A model generated the notes under the pieces. That model had not been told where the DNA came from, did no database searches, and was given only the letters and a program-made list of their open reading frames with translations. Below, one piece after another: positions 32,801-35,998 of a stretch of DNA of 64,000 nucleotides. Position 1 is the stretch's first letter. The number at the start of each line of letters is the position of its first letter. The position numbers were made by a program, and so were the translations under genes. Origin of the DNA: Chloroflexota bacterium (GTDB lineage Bacteria; Chloroflexota; Anaerolineae; B4-G1; SLSP01); contig JAIOAS010000002.1 of NCBI GenBank assembly GCA_019873725.1, positions 1,012 to 65,011 of the forward strand, in the 5' to 3' direction.

Positions 32801-33621
32801 CGGCTTACCCAACGTTCGCGTTCCACGGCTGAGGCCAGGAGCAGTTGGGGCTTGTGCTCCTCGGTGCGAGAGGGCTTTCCAGGTTCACATTCCAACGGAT
32901 CGCGGTTGGGTGCAGCGTGGGGCGTGTAGCGCAGCAGGCTTTGCCGCGCGGCTTCAGGCACAGGGAGCGAAATCCAATCCGGCTCGCGGTGTTCCCACAG
33001 ACGCTCGAAGCGCGCCACGGCCTCCGCCACCCATAGCCGCCCCTCATTCCACGAACAGAACACCATAAACTGTTCGTAGTTGTGTTCCCAGCCGGTTTCC
33101 GATTCGTTGATGCTGCCGCTAAAGGCGACCTGATGGCCCTCAGCGTCGGTGAAGATACCGACTTTCGGATGGAAGTAGTCGTGGGTGTCGGGCGCGGGGA
33201 GGGGCAAGCCGCCAGGACCTTTGGGGAGCACCACGCGGATGTCCAGGCGCTCGTGGGCTACCAACCAGGCCAACGCTTCCAACCGCGCGCGGAGCAGATG
33301 GTCGGTCAAGGTCTCTGGATCGGGCAAGCCCGGACCCAGGCTATTGGCGACCACATCAGGCAGGTTGTAGCCGGCTTCAATGGCCGCCACATCTTCCCGG
33401 CTGAGTTGCGCGCCGACGAGCAGGCGCATCCGTCCGCCGTTGGCGATGAGGTGCGCCACGCCTGCCGCCGCAATCGCCAGCGCGTGGCTGCTAAAGTAGC
33501 CCGTCATCCGGTCGTAACGCACGCTGGCGGTGAGGGCCGGGATGTAGAAGGTGTGCAGCCGGTCATCGCCGGGACCGTAGGAGAGGCGAAAAGAAAGGTC
33601 TGGCAGAAGATTAGCCATCAT
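29863..33621 (-). CDS. PLD-like (HxK) nuclease domain fused to SNF2/Rad54-family helicase
   Basis: [32 protein letters not shown]. Helicase: [74 protein letters not shown]. Start overlaps the upstream stop (ATGA). Confidence 0.8.
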   Translation of the reverse strand: [1252 protein letters not shown]

Positions 33622-34283
33622 TCTCGCTGAGGTTGTCTGTGTTCACAACCATTTTGGTCACACACTACCATTTCTAAGAAATATGCCAGGCTCCGATTCC
33701 TTTGCGCAGCTGTTGCTAACATTTGCATTTGTTCGGCGATCTCACCGGATTTCGATTTTTCGTACCGTACCCGTTTGGTATCCCGAGTGCCTTTTTCTTT
33801 GGCCACCTGACGAATAATATGGGTAATGGTTTCCTCCGCTTGAGACGGAGTATAGCCTTCTGTTTGCCCGCTTTGCTGGGGAGTATATCTGCTACCTCTA
33901 TTCCCAGCTTGAAAGCGTACAATCGCCTGCGTGTCGGTTAAGAGCCAACATTCAAGACAACTATGCGCCACAATTAACCCTACTATCATATCCTTTGGTG
34001 GGTCTTCGCAAAGTTCATCAAATGCTTGTGTAATCCGTCGCAGTAGGGCACGTTTGCTCGGATCATGAGGTTCTTGATCAACAACAAACATAACACAGTT
34101 ACACTGCTTATGCTGCGCGCTCGCTACCACCTTTTGCATCTTGGCAACGGTTTCTATTTCGTCTACTGAGTGAAACTCGACAAAAACGTGTGTGTTTATG
34201 CCATACTGCCGTCGCCAGTTTTCGGCCAGAATTTTGTAGGCAGCATTGCTCGAATCATCTACGGAGAGCAGTAAGCCCATCAA
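33618..34283 (-). CDS. DUF4276-like protein (putative Toprim/OLD-like partner of AAA_21 ATPase)
   Basis: 221-aa low-GC gene translationally coupled on both sides. Acidic/His-rich motifs (FVVDQEPHD, CLECWLL). Assignment to DUF4276 is from memory of the family consensus; low certainty. Confidence 0.4.
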   Translation of the reverse strand: MMGLLLSVDDSSNAAYKILAENWRRQYGINTHVFVEFHSVDEIETVAKMQKVVASAQHKQCNCVMFVVDQEPHDPSKRALLRRITQAFDELCEDPPKDMIVGLIVAHSCLECWLLTDTQAIVRFQAGNRGSRYTPQQSGQTEGYTPSQAEETITHIIRQVAKEKGTRDTKRVRYEKSKSGEIAEQMQMLATAAQRNRSLAYFLEMVVCDQNGCEHRQPQRE

Positions 34284-35998
34284 AACACCCCCTGATCCAA
34301 GATGTTTTTACGGGTCAGGTCGCCTAACCGATATTCATCCAGCCACGGCGCAAATTCTTCCGCCGTAACCGGCTCAAATGTGGTTTTTCCTTCTTCATCC
34401 CGTCGCGCAATGAACACTTGGAGATAGGATGCCTCTGCACGTAAATCAAAGCAATCCATAAAGTCGGGGCTGTGGGTCGTAATGACGATTTGTGGTCGCC
34501 GAAACTCCTGATCGTCCGACTCTGGCTCAAGATCTACGACTGAGCGGATAGCGTCGGCCAACCATAACATCAAATGAGGATGCAAGCCCCGATCTGGCTC
34601 TTCCAGACAGATCAAGGCGGCGCCTGGATCGCCGATAAGAACAGCCAATGTAGAGAGGAGACAAAGCGTGCCATCAGACATGCTTTCCGCTGGAATGGCA
34701 CGGCCAGGAAAGAATGTCTCGTTAAAAGCGATTTCAGCCTTGCCGGTTCCGCCAGTTACAGATGCGCGAAGCGTGGTTGTCAGGGATTGCGCTGCGCGAA
34801 TGGCGCTATGCAGGCGCTCCTGAATTTCCTCGAAAAGATCGTTTGTTGTTTCATTGTGCTTCAGAGCGTACAAAAAAGCACTTAGATTGCCAGCATTGTT
34901 TTGTAACGCTGGTATTTCTTCTCCTATGCTTTCTGGAATCACACTCTCCCGTGCAGCGCGCGGATCAACTTGAAGGAAACGCCAGCCCTGTATAAACCGA
35001 TACAAGTTTTCCAAAGGTGGGAAAGTCGTTTCCCGTCCGTACGTTGCTAAAGCGGCTGTCCGCAAAGGCAATTTCCCTTGCACTGGAAGGTATCGGGGAT
35101 GCTGGTTTTCGGGATCAGAATTGGGGTGCTCGGCGTAACGTTCCACTTTTCCGGCTTGCCGGTCAATGAAGGCGATTTCAGGTCCGATGGAATGCAACCT
35201 GAGCATCAAGCGCTCCCTATCGATAATCAGTCTGTCCCTTGCCTGCTTGATGGCTAGTTCGTAGCGCGGCGCAAAGCGTCCCTGCTGACCGGGAACTGCC
35301 ATTGTCAGATCAAATGTGAATTGCGGTTCGATTTCATCTGAAGTTCCATACCAAAACAGATGGCGGGCCATTTCCTGGTGCCCTTTTCCGATACCCTCAC
35401 TTGCCAGATCATGAACAAACCTTAAGGCTTTGAACAGATTTGATTTCCCGCTGGCATTTGGCCCGATGATGATATTGAGTTGTTTTAGTTCTATGCTAGA
35501 GTCAAAAATGCTTCTGAATCCGGTGATATGAATTTCTCGTAACAGGGGTGAGAAAACACGATGTTGTTGTTCCACAAAGGCCAAGGCTTCATCGGCTGTG
35601 ACGAGTTCGTTCCGTCCATTTTGTCTCACCCAATACGCTTCAAGCTCTTTCTGGCGATAGGGTTTGGCGTTATCATTTCCATACACACGCAACACGACAA
35701 CTGCGCCCCTTGCAGTTTCCACCGTTTCAATTTTGGGTGTTAAGGGCGGAGCGCAATGCTGTAAGCAGAGGTTTTCCAGTTGCGCTTGCAGGCGTTCAGG
35801 ATCCGGAACCCCGACAATTTCGGCAGCTCCGGCCTCGGCAGTTCCGGTCACGCCAAAAATGATCCATCCCTCAAAAACGCCGTTGGCGAACGCAATAACG
35901 GCAGGGAGCACCGCGGATACAGAGGTAAAGTCAGTTTTGAATGCGGTCCATCTGTTTTCACCCGCACTTATCCGCTCCCGTAAAACCTCCTCAATCAC
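34280..35998 (-). CDS. AlbA_2/Schlafen-like DNA-binding domain fused to AAA_21 (ABC/OLD-type) ATPase
   Basis: N-terminus LPAVIAFANGVFEGWIIFGVTGTAE (AlbA_2-like). Walker A NIIIGPNASGKSNLFKALRF. Walker B/D-loop ALICLEEPDRGLHPHLMLWLADAI. Confidence 0.6.
   Translation of the reverse strand: MIEEVLRERISAGENRWTAFKTDFTSVSAVLPAVIAFANGVFEGWIIFGVTGTAEAGAAEIVGVPDPERLQAQLENLCLQHCAPPLTPKIETVETARGAVVVLRVYGNDNAKPYRQKELEAYWVRQNGRNELVTADEALAFVEQQHRVFSPLLREIHITGFRSIFDSSIELKQLNIIIGPNASGKSNLFKALRFVHDLASEGIGKGHQEMARHLFWYGTSDEIEPQFTFDLTMAVPGQQGRFAPRYELAIKQARDRLIIDRERLMLRLHSIGPEIAFIDRQAGKVERYAEHPNSDPENQHPRYLPVQGKLPLRTAALATYGRETTFPPLENLYRFIQGWRFLQVDPRAARESVIPESIGEEIPALQNNAGNLSAFLYALKHNETTNDLFEEIQERLHSAIRAAQSLTTTLRASVTGGTGKAEIAFNETFFPGRAIPAESMSDGTLCLLSTLAVLIGDPGAALICLEEPDRGLHPHLMLWLADAIRSVVDLEPESDDQEFRRPQIVITTHSPDFMDCFDLRAEASYLQVFIARRDEEGKTTFEPVTAEEFAPWLDEYRLGDLTRKNILDQGVF

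What the first reader, a model, noticed from the sequence alone, without database searches (positions are those of the whole stretch)
33618..35998. AlbA_2(Schlafen-like)-AAA_21 ATPase plus DUF4276-like partner, ATGA-coupled to the PLD-SNF2 gene across a sharp GC drop
The ATPase (Walker A NIIIGPNASGKSNLF; D-loop LICLEEPDRGLHPHL) has an N-terminal AlbA_2-type DNA-binding domain. The downstream 221-aa protein overlaps it by 4 bp, and overlaps the PLD-SNF2 start by 4 bp (ATGATGG). GC content falls from ~62% in PLD-SNF2 to under 50% in these genes. This implies a recently acquired cassette fused in register into an older operon. ATPase + small Toprim-like partner pairs (PARIS, AbiL, Septu, OLD) are established anti-phage modules. 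A Schlafen-like sensor domain would be a new variant.
Basis: partly seen in the sequence, partly recalled or inferred. Interest (0 to 1): 0.65.

Follow-up and report, generated by a model that had tools for sequence, protein, structure and literature searches.

The report
Schlafen-ATPase/Toprim cassette embedded in Hma
The flagged gene pair is real, but it belongs to a three-gene, low-GC nuclease/ATPase cassette lodged inside an Hma (helicase-methylase-ATPase) anti-phage system, which is a rare Schlafen-fused variant of an already catalogued kind of embedded defence candidate (HEC-01) and not a recent insertion.

Summary
On the minus strand, a 572-aa AlbA_2(Schlafen)+ABC ATPase (35998..34280) is followed by a 220-aa divergent DUF4276/Toprim-like protein (34280..33618). 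That protein's stop overlaps the start of a PLD-SNF2 helicase (ATGA), and GC drops sharply at this point.

The interpretation needs correcting in four ways.
- The "older operon" is an Hma system: hmaC, ASCH/DUF7680, hmaB, hmaA. ABC-ATPase+Toprim pairs embedded in Hma are already catalogued as HEC-01.
- The low-GC block has three genes. It starts with a 939-aa TrlF/Ppl-type PHP+ABC protein.
- The arrangement is not recent. The same cassette, at the same hmaB|hmaA site and with the same GC deficit, occurs in five other lineages whose Hma and cassette proteins have co-diverged to 37-76% identity. One locus keeps the cassette between Hma remnants, and others are free-standing.
- The AlbA_2 domain carries the Schlafen RNase motif Ex4ExK in 19 of 21 family members, which suggests an effector rather than a sensor. 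The window copy has lost the second acidic residue (E19A).

The fusion is very rare: 4 of 1.84 billion cluster representatives, all apparently from Chloroflexota metagenomes.

Verdict: a new variant of a known kind, of moderate interest.

The parts
45238..48576 (-). hmaC: DUF499 ATPase of the Hma system (1112 aa)
   Evidence: PADLOC HmaC E 2.4e-108 and Pfam DUF499 E 8.8e-40. GC3 0.77.
44222..45241 (-). ASCH + DUF7680 gene, a conserved fourth gene of this Hma type
   Evidence: Pfam DUF7680 E 2.3e-28 and ASCH E 1.4e-5. Present after hmaC in L003, L006 and L009.
42070..44288 (-). First low-GC insert: two ORFs of 363 and 260 aa with no family assignment. The content of this site varies between loci.
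   Evidence: GC 0.45, GC3 0.44. No Pfam or PADLOC hit. The same site holds a CAP-domain gene in L003, four other ORFs in L009 and nothing in L006.
38952..42008 (-). hmaB: DUF1156 N6-adenine DNA methyltransferase (1018 aa)
   Evidence: PADLOC HmaB E 4e-77; Pfam DUF1156 E 4e-16 and N6_N4_Mtase. GC3 0.78.
36013..38832 (-). TrlF/Ppl-type PHP phosphoesterase + ABC ATPase. It is 939 aa from ATG 38832, which has an AAGGAG Shine-Dalgarno. The open frame extends up to GTG 38856.
   Evidence: NCBIfam TrlF_fam_ATP 441.8 bits (cut-off 350), full length. PADLOC Ppl E 3.6e-44. P0133 is 939 aa and 100% identical. GC3 0.50. The start context was read.
34280..35998 (-). AlbA_2(Schlafen)-ABC ATPase, 572 aa, HEC-01A-type
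   Evidence: Pfam SLFN_AlbA_2 and AAA_21. PADLOC HEC-01A E 7e-45 starting at aa ~150. AF2 model pLDDT 86.4. Foldseek finds Rad50/SMC/PtuA heads at E 5e-14.
35603..35959 (-). AlbA_2/Schlafen domain (aa 14-132). The motif G-E14-N-R-W-T-A19-F-K21 lies at 35936..35959, and the Ala19 codon GCA is at 35944..35942.
   Evidence: Pfam. PDB 2kyy AlbA_2 domain E 3e-8. 19 of 21 members have E-x4-E-x-(K/R/Q); the window has A19 and P0003 has Q14.
35441..35464 (-). Walker A motif GPNASGKS (aa 179-186)
   Evidence: Sequence read; regex; invariant in alignment A1.
34571..34615 (-). Walker B / D-loop LICLEEPDRGLHPHL (aa 462-476). The signature SDG is at aa 441-443 and the H-loop TTH at aa 507-509.
33618..34280 (-). 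220-aa divergent DUF4276 / Toprim-like partner (HEC-01B-like)
   Evidence: Pfam DUF4276 E 2.9e-5 (24.9 bits, cut-off 30.2). 14 of 16 family members hit DUF4276 and 4 of 16 hit RloB. hhalign against canonical DUF4276 partners gives 98.2% probability, E 6e-14. Conserved V7-(E/D)8-D9, D68-x-E70, E110 and W112. The predicted core is b-a-b-a-b-a-b.
29863..33621 (-). hmaA: PLD-like + SNF2 helicase (1252 aa). Its start overlaps the partner's stop (ATGA at 33621..33618).
   Evidence: PADLOC HmaA E 2e-67, PLD_Helicase E 2e-73 and BrxHI E 9e-79. Pfam SNF2-rel_dom and Helicase_C, plus PLDc_2 at E 6e-5. The junction was read.

Best explanation
What it is (shown): the window carries an Hma-type methylation-based defence operon, in the order hmaC, ASCH/DUF7680, hmaB methylase, hmaA PLD-SNF2 helicase. 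It holds two low-GC inserts. The flagged genes are the last two of a three-gene cassette that sits between hmaB and hmaA:
1. A TrlF/Ppl-type protein with a PHP phosphoesterase and an ABC ATPase.
2. An ABC ATPase of the HEC-01A / MAD3 / AriA-like AAA_21 group, carrying an N-terminal Schlafen (AlbA_2) domain.
3. A divergent DUF4276 Toprim-like protein.

History (shown): the cassette is an old, compositionally distinct module. It travels mostly with this Hma lineage in Chloroflexota (Anaerolineae-like) genomes, but it can persist without Hma.

How it most likely works (inferred by analogy with PARIS, Septu/retron PtuAB, MADS Mad3-Mad4 and Ppl): the ABC ATPase oligomer holds the Toprim partner inactive and acts as the infection sensor. 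On a phage cue, ATP-dependent rearrangement frees or activates the nuclease(s). Plausible cues are a phage protein that blocks the surrounding Hma restriction machinery, or free DNA ends. The nucleases would be Toprim, the Schlafen RNase in most family members, and the neighbouring PHP exonuclease. Cleavage of tRNA or nucleic acid then stops phage growth, giving a second line of defence behind Hma. In this particular copy the Schlafen site lacks its second acidic residue (E19A). Here that domain probably only binds nucleic acid or is inert, and Toprim would be the working effector.
For: - Hma identity: PADLOC HmaA, HmaB and HmaC at E 2e-67, 4e-77 and 2e-108.
- Pair identity: HEC-01A E 7e-45 and mad3 E 9e-23. 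The partner belongs to the DUF4276 family and gives hhalign 98.2% against canonical DUF4276 partners, two of which also hit OLD-like_TOPRIM. The Toprim-type acidic residues are conserved.
- ABC fold: AF2 pLDDT 86.4, and Foldseek finds Rad50, SMC, PtuA and Eco8-OLD heads at E ~1e-13.
- Third gene: NCBIfam TrlF above its cut-off.
- Conserved synteny hmaB-TrlF-fusion-partner-hmaA in L003, L006, L008 and L009. L015 lacks TrlF.
- Congruent divergence of Hma and cassette proteins.
- GC3 deficit of the cassette in every locus, including free-standing L097 at 0.46-0.54 against flanks at 0.84.
- Autonomy: L001 keeps an intact cassette between fragments of hmaC (aa 55-279) and hmaA (aa 11-95 and 1161-1229). 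L095/96, L097 and L111 have no Hma in the flanks available.
- Schlafen motif Ex4ExK is intact in 19 of 21 members. The motif is catalytic in RorSlfn5 and CbCash (PMC13056530, PMC13462974).
- Literature: HEC-01 is an ABC ATPase plus TOPRIM pair embedded in Hma (10.1101/2024.01.29.577857). DUF4276 is in the Toprim superfamily and Mad4 is a DUF4276 protein (PMC12065111). mad3 and mad4 are needed for MADS defence (10.1101/2023.03.30.534895). Ppl is a PHP 3'-5' exonuclease with an NTPase domain (PMC12904381).
Against: - No function has been shown for any member. The tested HEC-01 gave no protection against the phages tried in E. coli (10.1101/2024.01.29.577857).
- The partner scores below Pfam's gathering threshold. 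Its AF2 model is only moderate (pLDDT 60), and Foldseek against PDB returned generic three-layer a/b folds with no Toprim in the top 50.
- The window copy has E19A in the Schlafen motif and Asp in place of the Toprim Glu (D8). Activity of this copy is therefore uncertain.
- It is not settled whether TrlF and the pair act together. L015 has the pair without TrlF, and 7 of 8 sampled plasmid TrlF genes stand alone.
- The persistent GC deficit sits awkwardly with long co-inheritance in high-GC hosts and remains unexplained.
Confidence: 0.6

Rival explanations
1. Two unrelated tenants share one hotspot. The TrlF/Ppl-type gene is a self-sufficient single-gene system. The Schlafen-ABC + DUF4276 pair is a separate HEC-01-type system. 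They merely share the hmaB|hmaA insertion site, and neither talks to Hma.
For: - TrlF stands alone in 7 of 8 sampled plasmids.
- Ppl is a single-gene system (PMC12904381).
- L015 has the pair without TrlF.
- Unfused pairs in L011-L019 have no TrlF.
- 62.7% of Hma systems carry embedded genes of many kinds (10.1101/2024.01.29.577857).
Against: - TrlF lies 10-15 nt upstream of the fusion gene in 9 of 10 lineages, including free-standing copies and the unfused L097 trio.
- The three genes share GC content and a congruent divergence pattern.
- TrlF is also followed by a Schlafen-domain protein in unrelated R-M contexts, L098 and L104. This points to a TrlF-Schlafen partnership.
Confidence: 0.3
2. 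The cassette is an integral part of this Hma subtype. The ATPase/Toprim (and PHP) proteins would be the restriction effectors or regulators of Hma, as Mad3/Mad4 are within MADS, and not an independent back-up system.
For: - The position between methylase and helicase is fixed in six lineages.
- The partner is translationally coupled to hmaA through an ATGA overlap in the window and in L006.
- Cassette and Hma genes co-diverge.
- The other insertion site (DUF7680|hmaB) is variable while this one is constant.
- In MADS, mad3 and mad4 are required, and loss of mad5 is tolerated only if mad2 or mad3 is deleted (10.1101/2023.03.30.534895).
Against: - The cassette survives intact where Hma has been deleted down to fragments (L001).
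- It occurs with no Hma nearby (L095/96, L097, L111).
- Its GC3 is 0.2-0.3 below that of the hma genes in every locus.
- Most Hma systems lack it.
Confidence: 0.2
3. The copy in this window is on its way to being non-functional. It would be a decaying passenger whose Schlafen active site has already been lost.
For: - E19A occurs in the window copy only. Its close relative P0003 has independently lost E14 (E14Q).
- The AlbA_2 domain evolves faster than the ABC part: 81% against 91% identity to P0002.
Against: - All three ORFs are intact and full length.
- Walker A, signature, Walker B and H-loop are intact, as are the partner's conserved residues.
- The Shine-Dalgarno sites and gene overlaps are preserved.
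- Some mammalian Schlafens work without catalytic residues (PMC13462974).
Confidence: 0.15
4. One reading: a two-gene cassette was recently inserted in register into an older operon, with AlbA_2 acting as a DNA-binding sensor for a PARIS/Septu-like ATPase-Toprim module.
For: - The GC discontinuity falls exactly at the gene borders.
- The pair has an ATPase + Toprim-like architecture.
- AlbA_2 domains bind nucleic acid.
Against: - The same arrangement and the same GC drop occur in loci with 37-76% identity.
- The low-GC block contains three genes.
- The family keeps the Schlafen catalytic motif, which argues for an effector role (PMC13056530).
- The partner is DUF4276, not the DUF4435 of AriB or the HNH of PtuB.
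Confidence: 0.1

Closest known systems
HEC-01 (Hma-embedded candidate 01; PADLOC-DB v2; Payne et al., bioRxiv 10.1101/2024.01.29.577857)
   Same: It is a two-gene ABC ATPase (AAA_21/AAA_15-type) plus small TOPRIM/DUF4276 partner, embedded between hma genes. The window ATPase hits HEC-01A profiles at E 7e-45, and the partner hits HEC-01B weakly at E 4.5e-4.
   Different: - HEC-01A profiles start at about residue 150 of the window protein, so the N-terminal Schlafen/AlbA_2 domain is extra.
- The partner is a divergent branch with five conserved cysteines.
- A TrlF/Ppl-type gene is tightly linked upstream.
- HEC-01 itself gave no protection in the published assay, so the family's function is still unproven.
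MADS Mad3-Mad4 (methylation-associated defence system; bioRxiv 10.1101/2023.03.30.534895; PMC12065111)
   Same: It is an AAA_21-type ATPase plus DUF4276 protein pair inside a methylation-based multi-gene defence operon. PADLOC mad3 gives E 9e-23. NCBIfam MADS3 is the best NCBIfam hit for the ATPase.
   Different: - The NCBIfam MADS3 score is 69.6 bits against a cut-off of 420.
- There are no mad6-8 genes.
- The surrounding system is Hma (DUF499, DUF1156, PLD-SNF2).
- The Schlafen domain and the TrlF neighbour are absent from MADS as described.
PARIS (AriA ABC ATPase + AriB Toprim; PMC11464382)
   Same: An ABC ATPase scaffold or sensor is paired with a small Toprim-superfamily nuclease. The published AAA15/21 tree places DUF4276-partnered ATPases among the relatives. 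PARIS is the mechanistic template used here.
   Different: - AriB is a DUF4435 Toprim, whereas the partner here matches DUF4276/RloB only.
- AriA has no Schlafen domain.
- PARIS is often phage- or satellite-borne, whereas no viral contig carries this family.
Prokaryotic Schlafen nucleases (pSlfn, Cash; PMC13056530, PMC13462974)
   Same: There is an N-terminal SLFN_AlbA_2 domain with the Ex4(E/D)xK motif, fused to a second module and located in defence loci. Schlafen-ATPase proteins associated with BREX and R-M systems are reported.
   Different: - An ABC (AAA_21) ATPase fusion with a Toprim partner was not found in the texts held; the supplementary tables were not available.
- The window copy lacks the second acidic residue.
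- In those papers Schlafen is the sole effector, whereas here it would be one of up to three nucleases.
Ppl / TrlF family (PHP + ABC ATPase; NCBIfam NF045780, NF042955; PMC12904381)
   Same: The upstream 939-aa gene is a full-length TrlF-family member (441.8 bits) and matches Ppl profiles over the PHP domain and most of the ATPase.
   Different: - It scores below the Ppl equivalog cut-off (195 against 1000 bits).
- It is tightly linked here to a Schlafen-ABC/Toprim pair, whereas Ppl and most plasmid TrlF genes stand alone.

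Membership tests
Hma system (host operon) | HmaA SNF2 helicase, HmaB DNA methylase and HmaC ATPase encoded together | tested here: met
   PADLOC HmaA E 2e-67, HmaB E 4e-77 and HmaC E 2.4e-108, on the same strand within 19 kb.
HEC-01 | HEC-01A-type ABC ATPase | tested here: met
   PADLOC HEC-01A E 7.2e-45 over aa 158-562. The ABC fold is supported by AF2 and Foldseek.
HEC-01 | Adjacent TOPRIM/DUF4276 partner (HEC-01B) | tested here: met
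   Direct HEC-01B hits are weak (E 4.5e-4). Pfam DUF4276 gives E 2.9e-5, below the gathering score. However, 14 of 16 homologues hit DUF4276, and hhalign against canonical partners gives 98.2% probability over the full length.
HEC-01 | Embedded between hma genes | tested here: met
   Located between hmaB and hmaA in the window and in five other lineages.
HEC-01 | Anti-phage activity | not testable with these tools
   The published HEC-01 representative gave no protection against the phages tested (10.1101/2024.01.29.577857).
Toprim superfamily (partner) | Conserved Glu after strand 1 and DxD-type acidic motif after strand 3, on a b2-b1-b3-b4 three-layer fold | tested here: inconclusive
   - Sequence: (E/D)8 (Asp in the window), D68-x-E70 and E110 are conserved and align to the invariant E, D and E of canonical DUF4276.
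- The AF2 core has the b-a-b-a-b-a-b order.
- The model pLDDT is only 60, and Foldseek against PDB gave no Toprim hit.
PARIS | AriB-type DUF4435 Toprim partner | tested here: not met
   No DUF4435 hit. Only DUF4276 and RloB were hit. The AriA hit (E 3e-28) is to an AriA model that aligns over the same residues and the same 304 profile positions as Pfam AAA_21.
MADS (Mad3/Mad4) | Mad3 equivalog score, and the mandatory mad6-8 genes | tested here: not met
   NCBIfam MADS3 69.6 bits against a cut-off of 420. The neighbours are Hma genes, with no mad6-8 among the PADLOC hits listed (best 25 per protein) for the 14 proteins scanned.
OLD / Gabija class | ATPase and Toprim in one polypeptide (OLD, GajA), with a UvrD-like GajB partner in Gabija | tested here: not met
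   ATPase and Toprim-like protein are separate genes. GajA and Old hits cover only the Walker A region (E ~1e-12).
Septu (PtuA/PtuB) | HNH-type PtuB partner | tested here: not met
   The partner has no HNH hit. PtuA resembles the ATPase only in fold.
Prokaryotic Schlafen nucleases | SLFN_AlbA_2 domain | tested here: met
   Pfam 53.5 bits against a cut-off of 25.3, covering 116 of 118 profile positions. PDB 2kyy E 3e-8.
Prokaryotic Schlafen nucleases | Catalytic Ex4(E/D)xK motif | tested here: not met
   The window copy reads E14-NRWT-A19-F-K21, so the second acidic residue is replaced by Ala. 19 of 21 family members keep both acidic residues (E14 and E19); the third position is K in 16 of them and R or Q in three. 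P0003 has Q14.
TrlF family (upstream gene) | Full-length match above the NCBIfam cut-off | tested here: met
   NF045780 441.8 bits against a cut-off of 350, aa 12-946 aligned to profile positions 2-944 of 944.
Ppl (upstream gene) | Ppl equivalog score | tested here: not met
   NF042955 195 bits against a cut-off of 1000. PADLOC Ppl E 3.6e-44 covers profile positions 1-637 of 894.

The most novel reading that the evidence does not exclude
The three genes form one previously undescribed three-component system: a TrlF-type PHP-ABC exonuclease, a Schlafen-ABC ATPase, and a DUF4276 Toprim nuclease. This system combines up to three different nucleases under two ABC ATPases. It is specifically adapted to live inside methylase-helicase defence operons (Hma here; type I and type III-like R-M for the related TrlF + Schlafen-HATPase pairs). 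There it acts as a guard that fires when the host restriction system is blocked. Its persistently low GC would reflect exchange of the cassette as a unit between such operons.
Probability: 0.25. Interest if true: 0.6.

Novelty: new variant of a known kind. Interest (0 to 1): 0.45.

Why it matters
If the cassette is active, it would link three currently separate lines of work.
- Schlafen tRNases as ancient immune effectors.
- PARIS-like ABC-ATPase/Toprim sensors.
- 'Guilt by embedding' in Hma and R-M operons.

It also offers a natural experiment. One family contains copies with an intact Schlafen site, copies with a dead one, and copies with no Schlafen domain at all (window, P0003, L097). It also occurs with and without the TrlF gene (L015) and with and without the surrounding Hma (L001). 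That makes the division of labour between sensor, scaffold and effector directly testable.

The recurrent TrlF-Schlafen adjacency inside restriction operons of unrelated phyla hints at a general guard module for restriction systems.

The core idea, however, is already in the literature: ATPase+Toprim pairs embedded in Hma. The published representative showed no activity, so the finding is an extension, not a surprise.

Tried and rejected
- Promoter and terminator scan of 29.5-48.8 kb: fewer sites than in shuffles, so no information.
- Search for insertion scars. No direct or inverted repeats bracket the cassette. Only a 14-nt tandem repeat lies at the hmaB 3' end.
- Viral contigs: no relative found, so there is no support for a phage- or satellite-borne origin.
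- Literature on 'TrlF': nothing relevant in the held library.
- Supplementary domain tables of the two Schlafen papers are not held. I therefore could not check whether a Schlafen-AAA_21 architecture is listed among the 55 pSlfn types.
- P0003 could not be located on a contig.
- Rejected memberships: PARIS, Septu, OLD/Gabija, AbiL and MADS (see the membership table).
- Rejected the idea that L001 is a simple free-standing copy. tblastn shows Hma remnants on both sides.

Full report
**1. Observation**

The genes lie on the minus strand. The ORF table and the sequence itself show the following.
- A 572-aa ORF runs 35998..34280 (GTG start behind GGAAGGAGG).
- It is followed by an ORF running 34280..33618. 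This is 220 aa from the ATG, or 221 aa from a TTG one codon upstream.
- That ORF's TGA overlaps the ATG of a 1252-aa ORF (33621..29863) in the sequence ATGA.
- With the ATG start, which the databases use (P0121), the ATPase/partner junction is a 1-nt TGATG overlap.

Pfam places SLFN_AlbA_2 at aa 14-132 (E 4e-14, above the gathering score) and AAA_21 at aa 174-515 (E 4e-27). The quoted Walker A and Walker B/D-loop strings are present.

The GC drop is real:

| Gene | GC | GC3 |
|---|---|---|
| helicase | 0.614 | 0.725 |
| ATPase | 0.508 | 0.499 |
| partner | 0.468 | 0.43 |

The low-GC block continues upstream through a third gene and ends only at 38.9 kb.

**2. What surrounds it**

PADLOC and Pfam scans of the neighbours identify an Hma system:
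- hmaC: DUF499 ATPase, 48576..45238, E 2e-108.
- An ASCH/DUF7680 gene: 45241..44222.
- hmaB: DUF1156 methylase, 42008..38952, E 4e-77.
- hmaA: PLD-like SNF2 helicase, 33621..29863, E 2e-67.

The hma genes have GC3 of 0.73-0.78, like the rest of the window. Two low-GC inserts interrupt the operon.
- Two unassignable ORFs lie between DUF7680 and hmaB (44288..42070, GC3 0.44).
- A three-gene block lies between hmaB and hmaA.

The first gene of that block (38832..36013, 939 aa from an ATG behind AAGGAG) is a full-length member of the NCBIfam TrlF family (441.8 bits, cut-off 350). It also matches Ppl. It therefore combines a PHP phosphoesterase with an ABC ATPase. Ppl is described as a PHP 3'-5' ssDNA exonuclease with an NTPase domain (PMC12904381).

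**3. The pair is a known kind of embedded candidate**

The ATPase's best PADLOC hits are HEC-01A (E 7e-45), then PDC-M07A, AriA and mad3. All of these alignments start near residue 150, so the AlbA_2 domain is extra.

HEC stands for 'Hma-embedded candidate'. Payne et al. describe HEC-01 as an ABC ATPase with a TOPRIM partner embedded in Hma. They found that 62.7% of Hma systems carry embedded genes. They also report that HEC-01 gave no protection in their E. coli assays (10.1101/2024.01.29.577857).

DUF4276 has been assigned to the Toprim superfamily, and Mad4 of MADS is a DUF4276 protein (PMC12065111). mad3 and mad4 are needed for MADS defence (10.1101/2023.03.30.534895).

**4. Is the 220-aa protein DUF4276/Toprim?**

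- Alone it scores below Pfam's threshold (24.9 against 30.2 bits, E 2.9e-5), and it hits HEC-01B only weakly.
- Of 16 homologues, 14 hit DUF4276 (best E 1.3e-7) and 4 hit RloB.
- I built a profile of 12 canonical partners taken downstream of unfused ATPases. All 12 exceed the DUF4276 threshold, and two also hit OLD-like_TOPRIM.
- The family profile aligns to that profile over its full length with 98.2% probability, E 6e-14.
- The alignment superposes V-(E/D)8-D9 on the invariant VEG Glu, D68-x-E70 on the invariant Asp, and CLE110CW112LL on the hExW motif.
- The AF2 model has the expected b-a-b-a-b-a-b core, but it is weak (pLDDT 60). Foldseek against PDB found no Toprim.

DUF4276 family membership is therefore established by sequence profiles. 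The Toprim fold is inferred from the literature and the motifs, not shown here.

The branch has five conserved cysteines (C91, C108, C111, C207, C212), which remain unexplained.

**5. The ATPase**

The AF2 model on 21 family members is confident (pLDDT 86.4, pTM 0.82). Foldseek places the C-terminal 420 aa with Rad50 and SMC heads, retron PtuA and Eco8 OLD (E 5e-14 to 1e-11).

The N-terminal profile hits the solved AlbA_2 domain 2kyy (E 3e-8).

Recent work shows that prokaryotic Schlafen (AlbA_2) domains are tRNA-cleaving effectors with a catalytic Ex4(E/D)xK motif. The residues are E15/D20 in RorSlfn5 and E17/D22/K24 in CbCash (PMC13056530, PMC13462974).

The family consensus here is G-E14-D-E-x-T-E19-F-K21. 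Both acidic residues are intact in 19 of 21 members; the third position is K in 16 of them and R or Q in three. The window copy reads GENRWTAFK (Ala19, codon GCA at 35944..35942), and its relative P0003 reads GQNRWTEFK.

It is probably catalytically impaired in this copy.

**6. Distribution and context**

The fusion is rare.
- About 21 full-length 90%-identity clusters were found, all from metagenomes or MAGs. The few that carry a taxon name are Anaerolineales or Anaerolineae (P0025; L015).
- One locus was found among 185,579 species genomes.
- Four of 1.84 billion cluster representatives match across the domain junction.
- None was found on viral contigs.

Ten lineages have usable context:

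| Context | Loci |
|---|---|
| hmaB - TrlF - fusion - partner - hmaA | window, L003, L006, L008, L009 |
| hmaB - fusion - partner - truncated hmaA, no TrlF | L015 |
| Intact trio between an hmaC fragment (aa 55-279) and hmaA fragments (aa 11-95 and 1161-1229), so Hma was deleted around the cassette | L001/L002 |
| Trio just downstream of a different DUF499(faint)/MTase/SNF2 cluster | L102 |
| Trio with no Hma in the available flanks | L095/96, L111 |

The partner follows the ATPase in 10 of 10 lineages, and TrlF precedes it in 9 of 10.

Related unfused ATPases (about 40% identity) occur in two settings.
- With TrlF and DUF4276, between housekeeping genes (L097).
- Without TrlF, in a five-gene operon with a NurA-like protein and an N6/N4 methylase (L011-L019).

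**7. Age of the arrangement**

Protein identities (%) between the window and the other embedded loci fall in the same order for Hma genes and cassette genes:

| Locus | HmaB | TrlF | ATPase | Partner | HmaA |
|---|---|---|---|---|---|
| L003 | 75 | 73 | 65 | 64 | 72 |
| L006 | 68 | 64 | 64 | 61 | 65 |
| L009 | 66 | 56 | 46 | 39 | 63 |
| L008 | not available | 45 | 40 | 37 | 48 |

The cassette evolves faster. In L009 it is disproportionately divergent and is closest to the L001 copy (58-60%), which hints at at least one cassette exchange.

In every locus the cassette has lower GC3 (0.33-0.62) than the adjacent hma genes (0.58-0.85). Free-standing L097 shows the same pattern, at 0.46-0.54 against flanks at 0.84.

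The sharp GC drop is thus a standing property of the module, not evidence of recent arrival in this genome. Why it has not been ameliorated remains unexplained.

The other insertion site (DUF7680|hmaB) carries different genes in each locus, in contrast with the constancy of the hmaB|hmaA cassette.

**8. TrlF and Schlafen**

A distant TrlF (31% identity, 543 bits to the family model) in Brocadiaceae-type contigs lies between an N6/N4 methylase and a ResIII restriction protein. It is followed directly by an AlbA_2+HATPase_c_4 protein (L098-L101).

On a Citrobacter IncC plasmid the order is hsdM - hsdS - TrlF - AlbA_2+HATPase_c_4 - hsdR (L104).

Seven other sampled plasmid TrlF genes stand alone.

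A TrlF-Schlafen adjacency inside restriction operons therefore recurs across phyla but is not obligatory.

**9. Mechanism**

Shown:
- The domain content.
- Intact ATPase motifs.
- Conserved acidic residues of the partner.
- Tight operon structure, with 10-15 nt gaps or overlaps.
- Co-occurrence of the genes.
- Persistence of the cassette without Hma.

Inferred from PARIS (PMC11464382), MADS and Ppl:
- The ABC ATPase acts as sensor and scaffold and holds the Toprim partner.
- A phage cue triggers nuclease release or activation, followed by growth arrest.
- Where its motif is intact, Schlafen serves as an additional RNase effector.
- The PHP-ABC protein acts on DNA ends.

The position inside Hma suits a guard or back-up role, as Payne et al. 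discuss for embedded ABC-ATPase systems.

Three rivals remain open and are scored separately:
- Two independent tenants in one hotspot.
- An integral Hma effector, as in MADS.
- A decaying copy.

**10. Verdict**

The finding is real and well delimited, and it is largely explained by existing categories: an HEC-01-type pair embedded in Hma.

New here are four points:
- The Schlafen fusion, a very small clade.
- The conserved three-gene unit with a TrlF/Ppl-type gene.
- The evidence that the unit is old, compositionally distinct, and retained after Hma loss.
- The degenerate Schlafen motif in this copy.

I rate it a new variant of a known kind, with interest 0.45.

Noticed in passing
window 42070-44288 (minus strand): A second low-GC insert (GC 0.45, GC3 0.44) lies between the ASCH/DUF7680 gene and hmaB. 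It holds two ORFs of 363 and 260 aa with no Pfam or PADLOC family. The 260-aa ORF has a weak Atxe2-type lasso-peptide isopeptidase hit (E 1.8e-5). The same site carries a CAP-domain gene in L003, four unrelated ORFs in L009 and nothing in L006, so it looks like a variable embedding hotspot.
   Followed up: partly
L001 6372-7037 and 12402-12962 (also L002): This is a 'ghost' Hma. An hmaC fragment (aa 55-279) lies directly upstream of an intact TrlF + Schlafen-ABC + DUF4276 cassette, and two hmaA fragments (aa 11-95 and 1161-1229) lie downstream. The methylase and most of the helicase have been deleted while the cassette was kept.
   Followed up: partly
L098-L101 3940-12726; L104 2077-13044: TrlF is followed directly by an AlbA_2(Schlafen)+HATPase_c_4 protein and sits inside other restriction operons. 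In Brocadiaceae-type contigs the order is MTase-TrlF-Schlafen-ResIII. On a Citrobacter IncC plasmid it is hsdM-hsdS-TrlF-Schlafen-hsdR. This is a recurrent TrlF-Schlafen pair that I did not find described in the texts held.
   Followed up: partly
L011-L014, L016-L019 (e.g. L011 8001-14066): The nearest unfused relatives of the ATPase (about 40% identity) sit in a conserved five-gene operon. The genes are an ABC ATPase, a 234-aa DUF4276-like protein, a 380-aa protein (weak NurA hit), a 570-aa unknown and an N6/N4 methyltransferase. The operon occurs in Anaerolineales/Chloroflexota MAGs and may be another methylation-associated system.
   Followed up: no
window 38924-38979: About three copies of a 14-nt tandem repeat (GCTGGATGCTGGAA-like) span the 3' end of hmaB and the hmaB/TrlF intergenic region, exactly at the upstream GC boundary of the cassette.
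   Followed up: no
window 48455-51220 (plus strand): A second PLD + SNF2-type helicase gene (921 aa) is transcribed divergently from hmaC. Hits are PADLOC 'HKD+Snf2' C3a139 at E 8.7e-26 and Pfam PLDc_2 at E 1.5e-10. It may belong to the same defence island.
   Followed up: no
window 20958-23408 (minus) and 23446-24963 (plus): A CHAT protease domain is fused to an FGE-sulfatase-like domain (816 aa), next to a gene with a weak, below-threshold peptidase C25 match (E 2.2e-7, no matched stretch). There is a weak PADLOC SAVED_CHAT hit (E 3e-10). This may be another defence or caspase-like element near the island.
   Followed up: no
window 33618-34280 (partner protein) and alignment A2: Five cysteines (C91, C108, C111, C207, C212) are invariant or nearly so in this DUF4276 branch, including the unfused-ATPase partners. 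They are not conserved in the canonical DUF4276 set (A4). They may form a metal-binding or disulfide site.
   Followed up: no
P0003 (86% identical homologue of the window ATPase): P0003 has independently lost the first Schlafen catalytic residue (GQNRWTEFK, E14Q), while the window copy lost the second (E19A). The third member of this young subclade (P0002) keeps both. This suggests relaxed constraint on Schlafen catalysis in the subclade.
   Followed up: partly
L003 12422-13115: In one lineage a small 95-aa ORF plus a PIN-domain gene (a likely toxin-antitoxin pair) is inserted between the DUF4276-like gene and hmaA. The junction that is ATGA-coupled in the window can therefore be opened without loss of the flanking genes.
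   Followed up: no
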